From assembly GCF_018350175.1 (NCBI RefSeq), contig NC_058377.1, positions 63,302,001 to 63,366,000 of the forward strand: DNA of 64,000 bases. The letters run 5' to 3'. A program made the position numbers and the translations under genes. Of this stretch, positions 20,840 to 60,859 are shown piece by piece (position 1 is the first letter of the stretch; each line of letters opens with the position of its first letter). The DNA comes from Felis catus. Taxonomy: Eukaryota. The notes under the pieces were generated by a model, which worked only from the letters and a program-made list of their open reading frames with translations, searched no databases and was not told where the DNA came from.

Positions 20840-20960
20840 CTGTGGGGAAGGCAGGGGAGGGGGGAAAAAGAATTCACTCTTAGGTCATTTTGAGCCTCCC
20901 TCCCAGATCTATCCTGCCCACTGCCCGCCCCCATCTGGCTCAGCCCTCAGCCATCTGTAC

Positions 20961-21693
20961 CAACTCGGAAGACAAGTTCGTCCTCAATGGGGTTGTCCTT
21001 CCGTTTGCCACCTGTGCTGTACATGGAGCTGGGCCTGCGCACCGCCTTCTGGCGTACGTGGCTGCCGGGGCCGCCGGGGGACTTGACGCGGCGCTTGACA
21101 TCGTCTGGGGAAGGTGGCAGGTCTCCAGGACGCAGGGCACGCACGCGGAAAGGGCTGCCACGCACCGGCTGGCCGTAGAGCAGCACTGAGAGGAACAGCT
21201 CGCCTTCAGTGCGTGCCGTGTACACCAGCTCGTACGTGCCGTTCTTGTGGTCCACCACCGGCACAGGAAGGCGCGTGCCGTCGGGGCCCGTGATCTCCGC
21301 GCGCAGCTCCGCGCTGCCTGTGCGCACCAGCCTCCCATCCTTGTCTTTGGTAGTGACGGTGAGTGAGGCGGGCTGGCCCACGAGCGCCTGGCGCAGGCCC
21401 TCGCCCGTGGCCACGGTCTCATGTGCAGTGGCACTCGTGGTGAGCAGCGCGCCGAGATTGAGCACCGATCGCCGCAGCCCATCGACTTCGAGGACCAGTT
21501 CCAGCTGCGCGTTCTCATGTGGCCGCTCGGGGAAGGCCTGAGCCGCCAGCGCGGCCAGCCGCTCTCGCATGTGCTTGCGCACCAGCAACACCTCCGGGGC
21601 CGAGCCCAGACGCAGGGCTTGTTCCGCGAAGCTGCAGCTGCTGCCGATATGTTCCTGTCCCTGACGCAGTGTGTCTAACTGGGTCTGCAACAC
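20961..21693 (-). CDS. TRIM3: TRIM3 coding exon (coiled-coil end and filamin/ABP280 domain, 733 nt)
   Basis: [12 protein letters not shown]...[19 protein letters not shown]...DELVFRV; AG/GT. Confidence 0.98.
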
Positions 21694-21954
21694 CTGAGGA
21701 GGGGACAGGGGAAGGTTGGTCGCGCAGAGAGGGTCTCTGTGATTCCTTAGGAACTTACGGTACTATAGCATGAAAGAATTGCAAGAAGGTGAGTATGGGC
21801 AGGAGACCGATACCGCAGTACCAATGGGACCGTGTCGGGAGGCAGAACGTATAGTCTAGGGAAAGGGTTGCCCAGGTGTGGAAAGCAGAGAAAGCGTGGA
21901 GGCAATACAGCCATGTCACAGTGGGTGGTGGTAGGGAAGGGTGAACACACGCAC

Positions 21955-43713: not shown

Positions 43714-44007
43714 CTCGGGCCGGGCCGCTCTTCCCCTCAGGGCGCCAGGCCCGGGCCGCGCGGGGACCTCGGGCTCCAGTTCCCGTCGCGATCCTAGCAG
43801 CAGGTCAGGGATTCGGCGGAAGTGACGTCCCCTCCCGGGCAGAAGAAGCCGGCCACGTCGCAGATTATAAGGGCGGAGATGACGTTAAAGCCCGGGGCAG
43901 GGCGATCCTTGAGCCAACCCCTCATTCCCTGGGGAGGGAGGAGAGATCACTTCCGGGGCGTTACCAAGAAGCTGTGAGGAAGTGACGTAGGGTGCGCGGG
44001 TGGTGCG
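43714..44007. promoter_or_regulatory. Bidirectional CpG promoter of ARFIP2 (non-coding exon 1, donor after 43714) and TIMM10B
   Basis: Head-to-head genes within ~300 bp; CGGAAGTGACGTC 43817-43829, CACTTCCGG 43948-43956, GGAAGTGACGTA 43978-43989. Confidence 0.85.
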
Positions 44008-44064
44008 ATGGAGCCGCAGCAGCCACAGCAGCCACAGCAGCCGCAGCCGCAGCAGCTGAGAAAC
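44008..44064 (+). CDS. TIMM10B: TIMM10B (Tim9b/FXC1) exon 1
   Basis: GCGATGG; MEPQQPQQPQQPQPQQLRN; gtgagt donor. Confidence 0.95.
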
Positions 44065-44240
44065 GTGAGTGCGCGCTAAGTCGCTGCAGGGCCATAAGTT
44101 CAGCCAGCATCCTTGTCCGTTTGGTTGGAGATCTGAGGGCTGGGAATGTCGGGCTGTGGCACAGGGTCCTGGGAAATCTCGGGCGATGCGGCCTTGAGTT
44201 GCCCCCTTCCCGCTGAGTTCTTTGTTCCCTTTTCTCTTAG

Positions 44241-44336
44241 TTGCGGGACTTCCTGTTGGTCTACAATCGGATGACGGAACTCTGCTTCCAGCGCTGCGTG
44301 CCCAGCTTGCACCACCGAGCTCTGGATGCTGAGGAG
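44241..44336 (+). CDS. TIMM10B: TIMM10B exon 2 (first CX3C)
   Basis: [32 protein letters not shown]. Confidence 0.97.
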
Positions 44337-44509
44337 GTTAGGCGGGAAACTCAGTAGGGAGGTGCGCCGTAGATCCTTCCCAACCGCCACTCCCCCTGCC
44401 TCTGGCCCTGGCCTTTCTACGACCCTCACCCTTAGGTTAGGGATGGGAAGGAAGGAGGTGGACCCGACAGGACACCTTTGGCCTCTGCTTCCCCCTGTCT
44501 TCCTTCCAG

Positions 44510-44686
44510 GAGGCCTGTTTGCACAGCTGTGCTGGAAAGCTGATCCATTCCAACCACCGCCTCATGGCCGCTTACGTGCAGCTCATGCCTGCCCTGGTAC
44601 AGCGCCGCATCGCAGACTACGAGGCTGCCTCAGCTGGGCCAGGTGTTGCTGCTGAACAGCCCGGAACCTCACCATCAGGCAGCTAG
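44510..44686 (+). CDS. TIMM10B: TIMM10B exon 3 (second CX3C, TAG stop); 109 aa in total
   Basis: [58 protein letters not shown]. Confidence 0.97.
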
Positions 44687-44825
44687 CCCTCCTCAACCCC
44701 AGGAAGGGAGGCACTGGATGGACCCTCAAATTGAAGGAGCCAGTGGACCTTGGGCTGAATGCAGCCTGTATGTAGAGTGAGGGATTGCCTGAGAGCTGGG
44801 TACTATTGCTCCTTTTCCTGGAGCC

Positions 44826-56116: not shown

Positions 56117-56965
56117 AAAATAAATAAACATGAAAAAATATATAAAAAAAAGTAAGGGTGTGGCTTCTAATTTTTCCTCCACGGACTGTGATGGGACCTA
56201 GCAGCATGGTGGTGAACTCTCTTGGACATGGAAGACAAGGACCACCTTCTTGGAGAAAGTAGAACAACTGAAAGGCTGTCACGTTAGCCCTCAAGTATTT
56301 ATACTTGGGCAGTTATGTAAGAGGGAAAAAAAACTTCCATATGGTTTAAACCACTGTATTTTGGGGTCCTTTTGTTGTTGTAACATATGTGGCTGGCAGA
56401 ATTTTAAGATGGTCCTGAATTTCCCACTCCCTGTGTGCATATCCTACATCATCGCTAGGACTATGAATATGACAGCTTATATGGCAGACTTGACTGTAAG
56501 AAAGCAATATTATCTGGGTGGGTCTGACCTAACCACATGGACTTTTTAAAAGCAGGGAGATTTCTCTGGCTGGATTCAGAAAGATTCCAAGCTTGCAAAG
56601 AGTTTGAGACATGGTTGCTGGCCTGAAGGTGGATGAATCACATGGCAATGAAGGAAGGTGGCCTCTAGGACCTGAATATGGTCCCCAACTGATGGCCAGA
56701 AAGGAAATTGGGACCTAGTCTTACAACTGTGAGGATCTGAATCCTGCCAGCAAGAATGAGCTTGGAAAAGAATTTTCCCCCAGAGCTTTCAGATGAGAAC
56801 TCAGCCCAGCCCACTCTTAGATTTCAGGTTTCTGATACTCTGAGCAAAGAACCCAGCCAAGCCATGCTAAACATGGATCTGCAGAACTACAAGGTACTAA
56901 ACGGGTATTTGTTTCTAAGCTACTTAGGTTGTGGTAATTTGTTACACAGGCACAGAACACTTGTA
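55715..56965 (+). mobile_element. Nested MLT1-like LTR relics carrying a Can-SINE (55920-56150)
   Basis: ttccttgcagctaggtgtgcccatgtg; second LTR from tgtggctggcagaattttaagatgg (56388) to tgtggtaatttgttac; SINE TSD AAAAGTAARGGTGTG. Confidence 0.6.
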
Positions 56966-58162
56966 TGAAACCTTGTATGTCTCCTAATAGATACACAAGC
57001 AGAGTAATTGATACATAGGCTCTGAGATGGGAGCATTCTCGGTGTAATCCAAGCACAGCTCAAGTGGAGTGGATGAGGAGAGAGAATAGGAGAGAAGGAG
57101 AGATAGTAGGTGGCTGATCACATAGCAACTTGTAGGCCATGTAGGACTTTGGCTTTCACCAGAGGGAATGAGATGATAGGGCATTAGTTTTAAGCAGAGG
57201 AGTGACAAGAGCTGCCCTTTGAAAAGGGTCACTGGCTGCTCTGAAAAGAACAGATTGTGGGGACAAGGGTCGAAGGAGGGAGTCCAGTTAGAAGGCTATG
57301 GAATAATCCAGGTGAGAAGTGATAGTGACACAGACTAAGGTTGTGACACTTAAGGTGGTGAGGAATTGTTGGATTCTGGATAGATTTTGAAGCTATAGCC
57401 AACAGAATTTGCCAAAGGATTCAACATGGGAGGTAGGCTGAGGTGGGAAGAGAGGGATGGAAAGAGAAATCTAAGGTGATTTCAAGGTATTGACCCAAGC
57501 AACTGGAAAAATGGACTTGTCATTTTGGGGGAGGCGGTGAAAGGAGTAGGTTTCTTTTGCCACCGGGAGGGAGGTGGTAGTTAGAAGTCTGGTTTGGACA
57601 TTTTAAGATTTTAAGTTTGTGTTATTTATCAGATATCCAAGTAGAGCCATTAAGGAGGCAGATGGACGTACAAATCTGGATTGCAGGGCAGAGGTGGGAC
57701 NNNNNNNNNNNNNNNNNNNNNNNNNNNNNNNNNNNNNNNNNNNNNNNNNNNNNNNNNNNNNNNNNNNNNNNNNNNNNNNNNNNNNNNNNNNNNNNNNNNN
57801 NNNNNNNNNNNNNNNNNNNNNNNNNNNNNNNNNNNNNNNNNNNNNNNNNNNNNNNNNNNNNNNNNNNNNNNNNNNNNNNNNNNNNNNNNNNNNNNNNNNN
57901 NNNNNNNNNTCCCACCCCCCATTTTGGACTTCTTATGATCAAGGATTTTGTCTTATTAGGGGTTTGCTTGTGGGGGAGGTGGTAAGGTAGGGTTGGTGGA
58001 TATGTGGATGGGGTGCAGGTAGGGTCCCAAAGACATAACTTGCTGGTACTTGGTGCCAGCTAAGACGTTCAGTGAATGCATAAATAGGCACAGGGATCAT
58101 ACTTTCCCACGACGCCCTCACGGTTGCTACTTCCCCAAATCACCGTGTCATTTCTTTTTCAG

Positions 58163-58409
58163 ACCCAGCCAGACCGATCACCTATTCTCAAAGCGTGTGG
58201 GCAGCCAGCAGGTTTGGTCTGGGCCGCAGTGCTTCAGCTTCCCTGTCCTCGCCCTAGCCCCTCGCCCTGCCCTTGTGCGACCCCGGACCAGCACGGATGC
58301 TGACTCCTCCCCTTTCCGGTTTCTGAGGGTTCCGGAATTCTGGGGTGAAGGCTCGGGCCTTAAGGGACCCTGTAACGGTTCTAACAGCTGGGAGGGGATG
58401 GAGCTGCGG
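58163..58409 (+). other. DNHD1: Candidate DNHD1 upstream exon ending ATG GAG CTG CGG (58398-58409)
   Basis: tttctttttcag acceptor, CGG|GTGAGT donor, local CpG cluster, GGGATGG Kozak context. Confidence 0.55.
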
Positions 58410-58964
58410 GTGAGTATCCAGCTTATAATCCTCTTCCCTTTGCCCTCAGACCTCCCTTGCCACTGCCCCAGGAAGTTCCCCTCCTCCCACACTCCCAGGG
58501 ACCCCCTGGCCCTCCCCCTCTTCTTCTTCCCTTCTCTCTCTCCTTCCTTTTCCTCCTCCTATTCCTCTTCCTCTTCCCCTTCCTCCTTCTCCTCCTCCTC
58601 CTTCCAGCTTGGTCCTTTGCCACTTTTTCCTCTCTACACTCCCCCAACCTCATCTGAACCATGTAGTTCTCTGTGCTTTCTGTTCCCAAGAGCCCCCTCA
58701 GCCCATGTTCAGACAGGACTGGGGCTTTGTTGCCACAGAGTGACCACCTGTTCCTCCCTTCAGGCCATCCCTGGGCTCCACTCCCAGTGACGTTCCTTGC
58801 TGTTACCAAAGTTCTCTGAGTGAGCCCTTTCCAAGTGTGCATCAGTTTGTGCAAGTGATCACTCCTCCATGTGCCAGTCTCTCTGTATGGGCAGCTGTGA
58901 GTAGAGTGAGCCTGTGCTTGGGACCCAAGTCTTGGTTCACCAGTTTCTCCAACAGGCAGTTGGG

Positions 58965-59028
58965 ATGAAACCTTACCAGCACATCAGTCTCTCTTCCCTT
59001 CCATTGCCTCCTGTACCCCTTACACCAG
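58965..59028 (+). CDS. DNHD1: Predicted DNHD1 N-terminal coding exon (exon 58956-59028)
   Basis: MKPYQHISLSSLPLPPVPLTP+G; CAG|GTGAGG phase-1 donor matches the phase-1 acceptor at 59298. Confidence 0.6.
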
Positions 59029-59298
59029 GTGAGGGGGACTGTGTCCTGGGTGGTGGGAAGGAACTCTTGTGCAGAGAGGGCCCCTGCCTTTGTCTTGGGC
59101 CTGCTTCTTACCAGAGTCATTGGGGAAACTGTTGTCCTCTGCTGTTCTGGCTCTGCCCTGCAGCTGCCCTGCAGCTCCATCCATTTCCCTGTCCTAAGTC
59201 CCTCCCCTCCCCTGTCCCCCAGCCCCTTAGACCCTGACATTCCTAGCCCAGAACCTAAGGCCCCTTCTCTCACCCCTGTTCTGGGCTGGGCCAAACAG

Positions 59299-60133
59299 GT
59301 GAGACCCAGCAGCCAGGAGCCTGGAACTGGCAGTCAGAACCTGAACAGTGGGCAAGGTCAGTTCGACAGCAGCTGAATGCCCAGCTCCTCTTGGTCTCGG
59401 AGCCAAAGGCGGACTTGTCTCCTGAAGAGGCATCACCTGAAGCCCTTGAATCTCAGCACTCCGTCTGTGTTCCAGACACGAAAGAGCAGCTCCAGGACCG
59501 TCAGAGGACACAGAGACAGTCCCCAAAGGCAGTGAGCCAGTCAGAGCAGCCCACAGCGCTGGAGCTCCTGGTAGCTGAGCTCCAAACTCTGTTCTCAGCT
59601 GTCCTGCGGGATGGCAGCCCTGCAGCTTGGCACTACCTGCATGCGGTGCTGCGTCTGCTGCCTCCATATCGTGTGCTGCTTGTTGGTCACCTTGATTTGC
59701 TGCCCTTCCTGGAGCAGCTGTCCCACTGGGCACCCTGGGTCCAATCCCAGCTCCAGCTGGACCTGCTAGATGCCATAGAGCAGGCCTTTCCCCCAGACAC
59801 CTCTTTGTTAGAGAGTGCCTCACATATTGAGTGCTGTTCCCAGAAGCAGAAGTTCCGTCACAGGCCCCCACACCCAGTCTGCCCTTTTGTGCAGGCCCGC
59901 TGGGGTGGGCAGCACGTGGGGGAGGAGTTGGCTACATCGCTGCGACCACTGACACTGCCAGAGCTACAGCGCAGCCTGGGTATTGTTGGTGCCCAGGTGG
60001 CCCTGAAAGAGACCTGGTGGCTAGATGGCCTTAGCCTCCTGCCCTTGGCACTGGCCACAGACATCCCCGTACGGTATGAAAGCAGGGACACTGATGATGC
60101 AGAGGAGGAGCCTGTTGGAAGAAAAGAGACTAA
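59299..60133 (+). CDS. DNHD1: DNHD1 (dynein heavy chain domain 1) large 5' coding exon; gene continues past the window
   Basis: ELLVAELQTLFSAVL...WHYLHAVLRLLPPYRVLLVGHLDLLPFLEQL...DIPVRYES...EPVGRKET matches the remembered DNHD1 N-terminus; AA|GTAAGT donor after 60133; 59391-60133 firm, 5' boundary inferred. Confidence 0.88.
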
Positions 60134-60859
60134 GTAAGTGAGGGACCCAGAGTGGGGCTTTGAGCAGAGGGGAAAAAGAAGAAACTTAACGGGTGCCTCC
60201 AGCATCACTTCGAAGTCTAGGGCCAGCTCCCTATTGATTTTAGGCATTAGCCTGAACCCCAAGCTATGCTGGTTGCAGCTGTTTCTTTCTCCCTTTTTGT
60301 CTGCAAATAAACCGAGTGTTCTAACTGTTAATCCCCTTCAGGCAATGCAGAAATTCATGAAAATCAAAAGTCAGCTATAAGGAAGCCAAGGCATCAGAAA
60401 ACAGCTTGAGTTTCCACAGTTTCCAGATCTTTCTCAGATGGTGCTAGAAGCTTCTTTAGTTCTTTTTCTCACTCTTTCATAATCCCTGACCCTCTCCTCT
60501 GGGCCTGCCTAGGGCTGGGTGCTGGATGTTGTGTACAGGTTCTTCCCTCAGGACGCTCCTAGGTGAATGCTTGTCTGAGGGACCTTCCCACACATTTGTG
60601 TGTGAGCTAAGCCAGCCCCAAAGCACATTAGAGTTGGCAGCTCAGGCAAATGCGACATTCATTCTGACCTTTTCAGAGCCTTCTTCCTGCCCTGCCAGTG
60701 TGGGTATCCTGGCCCCTTGAGTGCCAATTGTTTCCCCCAGTCGGGCTCTCATTGCTCCTTTCAAGATTTCAGAGTGTCTACAGAGACCTCCTCTTCTCAG
60801 AGTTCTTTAACACTAGTCTTAGAATTCCCCCCCCCCCCCATCCTCTGGCCTGATTTTCT

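What the first reader, a model, noticed from the sequence alone, without database searches (positions are those of the whole stretch)
58398..60133. DNHD1 lacks the human start ATG; an extra intron appears to supply a longer N-terminus
Seen: the 248-aa ORF at 59391 starts at TTG and contains no in-frame Met; the frame is closed upstream by TAA at 59256. ATG 58965 is in the same frame and is followed by a phase-1 donor (CAG|GTGAGG, 59028). A phase-1 AG at 59298 follows a pyrimidine tract. Removing 59029-59298 (270 nt) gives an open frame MKPYQHISLSSLPLPPVPLTPGETQQPGAWNWQSEPEQWARSVRQQLNAQLL-LVSEPK..., 52 aa longer. Joining the 58409 donor to the 58956 acceptor adds MELRAVG in frame from a strong-Kozak ATG at 58398. 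From memory, human DNHD1 starts MVPEE at the position of this TTG and treats the upstream stretch as 5' UTR. Inference: start codon and intron usage differ between lineages in this sperm-flagellum gene.
Basis: partly seen in the sequence, partly recalled or inferred. Interest (0 to 1): 0.7.

Follow-up and report, generated by a model that had tools for sequence, protein, structure and literature searches.

The report
Human DNHD1 reference likely starts late
The 'extra' intron and upstream start codon of this sperm-tail dynein gene are the normal, ancient mammalian arrangement, already annotated in many species, and it is the human reference protein that likely starts too late, at a methionine seen here only in apes and Old World monkeys, leaving out a helix conserved from mammals to molluscs.

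Summary
The 270-nt intron is real: a GT..AG joint 59028|59299 stands in one public run. But it is not a lineage novelty. The same N-terminus from ATG 58965 is already annotated in 13 of 17 DNHD1 hits, 12 mammal species from dog to elephant. The extension carries a helix whose Trp is kept from wombat to acorn worm and bivalve and folds confidently, while the stretch after the human start is a placental, disordered insert. Human numbering appears to begin at the primate Met, so the 4753-aa reference likely lacks 52-60 conserved residues; no human-labelled sequence was seen. The proposed 58409|58956 junction was not seen; 58409 joins 58764, making ATG 58398 a 12-codon upstream ORF.

The parts
56864..56893 (+). 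3' end of an alternative upstream (likely non-coding) exon inside an old interspersed repeat; donor AAG|GTACTA after 56893, spliced to 58163; 5' end not determined
   Evidence: loose end in one X3 contig maps to 56873-56891; donor; 40 of 40 scored candidates in the genome match the repeat at 66-80% apart from the self hit
58163..58409 (+). 5' leader exon (acceptor before 58163, donor after 58409); holds upstream ATGs 58297 and 58398
   Evidence: X3 contig 58161-58410, depth 15.6; splice signals
58398..58790 (+). 12-codon upstream ORF from ATG 58398 across the 58409|58764 joint, stop ending at 58790; not an N-terminal extension in the isoform seen
   Evidence: joint, translation by coordinates; translation in vivo untested
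58410..58763 (+). 354-nt GT-AG intron in the 5' leader
   Evidence: joint 58409|58764, depth 6, one contig of X3
58764..59028 (+). first coding exon (265 nt): leader with two more upstream ATGs (58869, 58887; stop ending 58904), then codons 1-21 of DNHD1
   Evidence: X3 contig 58763-59033, depth 16.9
58965..58967 (+). ATG, likely main start codon of DNHD1 (G at -3, A at +4)
   Evidence: Met invariant in 12 of 12 placental rows with this region; initiation itself inferred
59029..59298 (+). 270-nt phase-1 GT-AG intron
   Evidence: joint with GT..AG ends, depth 8.8, one contig of X3; orthologue proteins are colinear across it
59299..60133 (+). large second coding exon of DNHD1
   Evidence: 86% identity to dog DNHD1 over the whole query; next exons follow downstream on the same contig
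59340..59396 (+). conserved helix (residues 36-54) with Trp39 at 59349-59351, upstream of the human annotated start
   Evidence: Trp39 invariant in 33 of 33 chosen rows; helix 36-54 with pLDDT 82 and 74 over residues 31-50 in the dog model
59391..59393 (+). TTG = internal Leu53; the position at which catarrhines have Met and at which the human reference appears to start
59391..59528 (+). approximate placental-specific, poorly conserved, predicted disordered insert of about 47 residues between the conserved helix and the helical bundle
   Evidence: spacer Trp39-Leu112 is 60-73 aa in 19 of 19 placental-type rows and 20-26 aa in 14 of 14 other rows; conservation 0.57 against 0.83-0.85 on either side; pLDDT under 50 at 54-92

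Best explanation
This is the ordinary 5' end of mammalian DNHD1: the 270-nt intron is spliced out, translation likely starts at ATG 58965, and the 52 'extra' residues carry an ancient helix predicted to belong to the protein's N-terminal helical domain, so the human 4753-aa reference, which appears to start at a primate-derived Met just behind that helix, is likely annotated too short. Mechanism: a leader exon ending at 58409 is spliced to 58764 (shown in one run); ribosomes would pass or reinitiate after up to four short upstream ORFs (inferred) and start at 58965 (inferred from conservation); the intron 59029-59298 is removed (shown). Residues 1-28 are predicted disordered, 36-54 form a helix, about 47 placental-specific residues loop out, and the helix would pack on the bundle at 106-184 as it must do over a 20-26 residue spacer in non-placental animals (inferred). 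A Leu-to-Met change at the start of that insert, before apes and Old World monkeys split, gave annotators a downstream ATG in the big exon, and projections of that start are likely the source of the short models in other mammals.
For: RNA-type joint with GT..AG ends. 13 of 17 hits, 12 species, already carry the extension. 30/30 identity to dog in the 30 codons before TTG while the exon as a whole is 86% identical. Conservation of residues 29-52 is 0.83, like the folded core (0.85) and above the 52 residues after the human start (0.57) (12 placental rows). Trp39 is 1 of 6 invariant columns in 33 rows that include wombat, two lizards, three amphibians, lungfish, acorn worm, feather star and a bivalve. 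Met at the human-start position in 24 of 72 records, 23 named Old World monkeys or orangutan plus unnamed P0242; all 24 have the upstream motif in frame. Unnamed record P0242 is great-ape-like (115/126 to orangutan, 65/66 to P0243) and reads open from the upstream Met through the primate Met. Human Arg849 lands on Arg in 11 of 11 long enough primate proteins when counting from the primate Met, and 3 of 3 positions fit only that offset in P0032. Helix confident and insert not in both models; several structure matches span model residues 27-188 with about 100 aligned residues at rmsd near 3, more than the 83-residue bundle alone (indirect).
Against: The joint rests on one contig in 1 of 4 runs laid, with 22 letters on the short side and 8 that fit either side; that run is only guessed to be RNA and also holds intron sequence. 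No protein-level or ribosome evidence for any start. No sequence labelled human, chimpanzee or gorilla was returned, so the human frame is untested; P0242 has no species label. 4 of 17 hits and two NCBI monkey isoforms (P0037, P0041) start at the downstream position. The 33 rows were picked by me, partly because they show the motif; in the unselected scan only 7 of 147 proteins passed E 0.001 with the short mammalian profile, and several distant relatives (P0114, P0122, P0131, P0134) show no clear Trp motif. The long macaque isoform P0028 fits only 2 of 10 human positions at the Met offset, probably from isoform indels. Packing of the helix was not measured directly.
Confidence: 0.85

Rival explanations
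1. Humans (or African apes) really lost the upstream start or frame and use the primate Met, so the human protein truly lacks the ancient helix; the reference is right and the difference is a recent true truncation rescued by an older Leu-to-Met change.
For: Papers give 4753 aa on a curated RefSeq transcript; numbering fits the primate Met; two monkey isoform models also start there; four upstream ATGs could lower use of the upstream start.
Against: Orangutan and a great-ape-like unnamed spliced record keep the frame open; a second great-ape-like record seen on 41 contigs keeps the upstream Met and exon frame (P0271); the helix has been kept across bilaterians.
Confidence: 0.3
2. One reading: this lineage lost the human start ATG and gained or recruited an extra intron and an upstream start, with a further leader from ATG 58398.
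For: TTG instead of ATG at 59391, the intron and the in-frame arithmetic are all real.
Against: Same N-terminus in Afrotheria, Laurasiatheria, Glires and primates; Met at that place only in catarrhine-type records; 58409 joins 58764, not 58956; no stored protein has the leader.
Confidence: 0.04
3. Translation starts at the TTG (non-AUG start) at 59391, or the TTG is a sequencing error for ATG.
For: Some UniRef models of dog, pig, peccary, vaquita, narwhal and red squirrel write Met there. Reads did not cover the codon usefully.
Against: Other models of the same or close species have Leu there with the upstream motif in frame (dog P0001 against P0019/P0020; narwhal P0050 against P0051; blue whale P0052), which points to a projected start written as Met; an in-frame AUG lies 52 codons upstream on a spliced exon.
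Confidence: 0.04

Closest known systems
NCBI and UniRef models of DNHD1 in dog (A0A8P0T9V5), raccoon dog (CAD7671664.1), langur (XP_033062486.1), orangutan (XP_054380757.1), mole, beaver, voles and others
   Same: Same start Met, same junction position and same conserved motif upstream of the human start.
   Different: Monkey and orangutan models often add 23 more residues from a further upstream Met that this genome lacks; orangutan and P0242 carry 8 extra residues at the junction, some voles 4. No model of this window's own species was returned.
Human DNHD1 reference, NM_144666.3 / Q96M86, 4753 aa (PMC9916431, PMC13065322; passages read)
   Same: Orthologue; the primate sequence from the Met on aligns to Leu53 onward here.
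   Different: Appears to start at the primate Met (also recalled), so it lacks the 52 residues with the conserved helix.
Conserved unannotated N-terminal extensions in human genes (Fedorova et al., PMC9789052 / 10.1101/2022.05.02.490320, passages and supplements searched; Ivanov et al. 2011, PMC3105428, search listing only)
   Same: Purifying selection on codons upstream of an annotated human start.
   Different: Those are non-AUG extensions; here an AUG on an upstream exon supplies the start. DNHD1 was not found in the text or in 13 supplement files searched (2 not searched).

Membership tests
DNHD1 orthologue (orphan dynein heavy chain) | Best sequence matches are named DNHD1 proteins | tested here: met
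   13 of 17 hits named DNHD1, 4 'uncharacterized' or DNHD1-type fragments of the same family; best 86% identity, E 2.9e-148
DNHD1 orthologue (orphan dynein heavy chain) | Single locus with further exons in order | tested here: met
   7 matches of dog P0001 in the own genome, all on C21 within 22 kb, same strand, in order (first 664 residues only)
DNHD1 orthologue (orphan dynein heavy chain) | Dynein linker, AAA ring and stalk domains downstream | not tested
   Shown for the raccoon dog protein P0018; not read in this genome, they lie beyond the window
Major-class (GT-AG) spliceosomal intron, 59029-59298 | GT and AG ends and removal from RNA | tested here: met
   one contig in one run
Lineage-specific N-terminal extension or intron gain | Absent from outgroup species | tested here: not met
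   present in elephant, rodents, lagomorphs, shrew, mole, primates; motif also in wombat and non-mammals
Non-AUG-initiated proteoform | No in-frame AUG upstream on the spliced mRNA | tested here: not met
   in-frame ATG 58965 on the spliced upstream exon
Human gene with N-terminally truncated reference annotation | Open, conserved frame from an upstream AUG in the human transcript | tested here: inconclusive
   open in orangutan and in an unlabelled great-ape-like record; no human-labelled sequence returned
Human gene with N-terminally truncated reference annotation | Ribosome or peptide evidence on the upstream codons | not testable with these tools
   no ribosome profiling or proteomics on hand
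Leader with regulatory upstream ORFs | Upstream ORFs translated and affecting main-ORF output | not testable with these tools
   four upstream ATGs with stops before 58965 in the isoform seen; conservation and translation not tested

The most novel reading that the evidence does not exclude
The human DNHD1 reference (and the numbering used for infertility and laterality variants) omits 52-60 translated residues, including a helix conserved across bilaterians, because a catarrhine Leu-to-Met change was taken for the start; one 'non-coding' exon and part of the next are coding, and damaging variants there are being filed as 5' UTR. If instead the human frame is broken, humans lost a helix kept for over 500 million years in a sperm-tail dynein.
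Probability: 0.6. Interest if true: 0.5.

Novelty: already known. Interest (0 to 1): 0.33.

Why it matters
For this genome the matter is ordinary: it fixes the correct start of DNHD1, as other mammal annotations already have it. The by-product matters more. DNHD1 is a male-infertility gene (PMC9916431, PMC13065322) and a laterality candidate (PMC9749982); if the human reference is short, start-loss, splice and nonsense variants in the true first coding exon would be scored as untranslated, cDNA constructs and structure predictions would lack a core helix, and projections from human keep writing a false Met into other species' models.

Tried and rejected
No RNA holder on record was listed for the stretch; 14 guessed-RNA and 4 unlabelled contig runs held 0.96-1.00 of its words. 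X1 and X2 laid nothing and X22 was too thin (13 reads) to show joints. The ESM Atlas gave no result for the window's protein. Pfam has no family for the exon or for dog P0001. Fold searches: first model, no match at E 0.001; second model matches 10 axonemal chains at E under 0.001 without showing which part; the wide search gave only middling helical matches, Z at most 8.3, which name no family. Five other in-frame AGs near the acceptor exist (59260, 59317, 59320, 59338, 59362); only 59299 was seen in RNA and fits dog. Literature: no paper on the DNHD1 start found in searches for DNHD1 with start codon (3 papers, listing only, none on this by title or abstract), PhyloCSF (0), upstream open reading (1, unrelated), human-specific (6), or in the listings; DNHD1 absent from supplements searched of PMC9789052 (13 files; 2 not searched), PMC6886504 (9 files; 2 not searched) and PMC12718117 (6 files). 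The original human-and-mouse DNHD1 paper (recalled) was not held under the id tried. PMC6560109 lists a fixed modern-human missense change in DNHD1, with nothing on the start in the passages read. Earlier findings of the scan: 0 on DNHD1.

Full report
Observation. The coordinates hold. The frame 59259-60134 has no Met, TTG stands at 59391, TAA closes the frame at 59256, and ATG 58965 with the donor after 59028 and the AG at 59297-59298 gives an open frame 52 codons longer. The acceptor is weaker than described: 10 of 20 pyrimidines at -23..-4. The exon is DNHD1: 17 hits, best 86% identical (dog), and the next exons follow on the same contig.

RNA. Four runs were laid on 57950-59660. In X3 (contigs; RNA is the tool's guess) one contig of depth 8.8 skips 270 nt with GT..AG ends at 59028|59299. 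A second joint, depth 6, links 58409 to 58764, and a contig of depth 16.9 covers 58763-59033 unbroken. In the isoform seen, ATG 58398 opens a 12-codon ORF, one of four upstream ATGs whose frames all stop before 58965. X1 and X2 laid nothing; X22 laid 13 reads and listed no joint. X3 also holds intron sequence, so unspliced RNA or DNA is in it.

The extension is the general mammalian N-terminus. 13 of 17 hits (12 species: dog, two monkeys, elephant, grey squirrel, mole, pika, beaver, shrew, blind mole rat, vole, kangaroo rat) already carry it. The 21 upstream codons match orthologues at z above 5 in 13 of 16 species and the next 30 codons at z 13-23 in 16 of 16, 30/30 identical to dog. Over 12 placental rows, mean column agreement is 0.67 for residues 1-22, 0.83 for 29-52, 0.57 for 53-104 and 0.85 for 105-175. 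The 4 of 17 short hits are UniRef models that write Met at the human position; paired models show Leu there (dog P0001 against P0019/P0020, narwhal P0050 against P0051, blue whale P0052), so these Mets are likely projected starts (inference).

Polarity. Among 72 stored records with the upstream motif, 24 have Met at the human-start position: 23 named Old World monkey or orangutan proteins (10 species) and unnamed P0242; the other 48 do not. Many are isoforms of one species, so these are not independent counts. The Met is therefore derived in catarrhines or somewhat earlier (no New World monkey, tarsier or lemur was seen) and sits inside a frame that those species keep open. Two monkey isoform models start at it (P0037, P0041).

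Depth and fold. A search of 1.84 billion representatives gave distant relatives, ten of them named: wombat, bearded dragon, gecko, lungfish, caecilian, newt, spadefoot toad, acorn worm, feather star, bivalve. In an alignment of 33 rows that I chose from about 270 stored proteins, partly for showing the motif, Trp39 is one of 6 invariant columns, with Ala40 and Arg44 nearly invariant. The spacer from Trp39 to Leu112 is 20-26 residues in 14 of 14 non-placental rows and 60-73 in 19 of 19 placental-type rows: placentals gained an insert of about 47 residues, and the primate Met lies at its start. Unselected, a short mammalian profile found the motif at E under 0.001 in 7 of 147 proteins (many are fragments or lack the region), and some distant relatives lack a clear motif. 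AlphaFold models of dog P0001 give a helix at 36-54 with pLDDT 75/64 (16 rows) and 82/74 (33 rows), low confidence at 1-28 and 54-92, and a bundle at 106-184. Structure matches spanning 27-188 with about 100 aligned residues at rmsd near 3 suggest that helix and bundle form one unit in the model; this is indirect and names no family.

Human. Papers give 4753 aa on NM_144666 (passages of PMC9916431, PMC13065322, PMC9749982). Their residue numbers fit counting from the primate Met: Arg849 in 11 of 11 long enough primate proteins, and 3 of 3 positions at that offset alone in P0032, two of the three inferred from cDNA numbers; a long macaque isoform fits only 2 of 10. No human-labelled sequence came back. 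Orangutan P0047 and an unnamed, spliced, great-ape-like record (P0242; 115/126 to orangutan, 65/66 to P0243) read open from the upstream Met through the primate Met, and P0271 (41 contigs) keeps the upstream Met and exon frame. I put the chance that humans translate the extension at about 0.6.

Function. DNHD1 is the one orphan dynein heavy chain of humans, needed for sperm flagella and nodal cilia and possibly non-motile (passages of 10.1101/2025.01.18.633724). The tail of a dynein binds partners (same paper), so the conserved helix likely completes a small helical domain at the tip of the tail; its partner is unknown. Shown: intron, exon structure in one run, conservation, distribution of Met and insert. 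Inferred: initiation at 58965, packing of the helix, role of the upstream ORFs, state in humans.

Novelty. The feature is already in public annotations of many mammals, so it is not new. I found no paper that discusses the DNHD1 start (supplements, four files not searched; most subscription journals are not held), and database curators may have noted it where I cannot see. Verdict: observation mostly right, interpretation reversed; ordinary for this genome, with a cheap and useful test of the human reference. Interest 0.33.

Noticed in passing
window 56390-56960 and 58163: An exon ending at 56893 inside an old interspersed repeat (66-80% identity to other copies) is spliced to 58163 in one contig of X3. 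The repeat looks like a MaLR-type solo LTR (recalled resemblance, not tested), so it may be a repeat-derived alternative first exon or part of a read-through from the upstream gene; its ATGs at 56864/56873 stop at 58303.
   Followed up: partly
window 59293-59306: The acceptor at 59298|59299 is also a good donor consensus (CAG|GTGAGA), nearly repeating the real donor (CAG|GTGAGG), which is why 8 letters fit either side of the joint; a dual-use site is possible but was not seen.
   Followed up: no
P0047, P0242, P0061, P0064, P0007, P0013: The junction region varies by small in-frame insertions: 8 residues in orangutan and P0242 that match the start of the intron here, 4 in some voles that match its end, so alternative donors and acceptors near this intron are tolerated.
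   Followed up: no
P0002, P0027-P0036 and other monkey models; P0047: Monkey and orangutan models add 23 residues from a further upstream Met that is absent here.
   Followed up: no
window 1-45000: Peptides resembling HPX (minus), TRIM3 (minus; Filamin domain at 20953-21762), ARFIP2 (minus) and TIMM10B (plus, about 44000-44800) lie upstream in the order recalled for human 11p15.4; names recalled from peptide resemblance. The TIMM10B-like N-terminus has a Gln/Pro repeat.
   Followed up: partly
window 58542-58609: A pyrimidine simple repeat in the 354-nt leader intron; reads are cut there.
   Followed up: no
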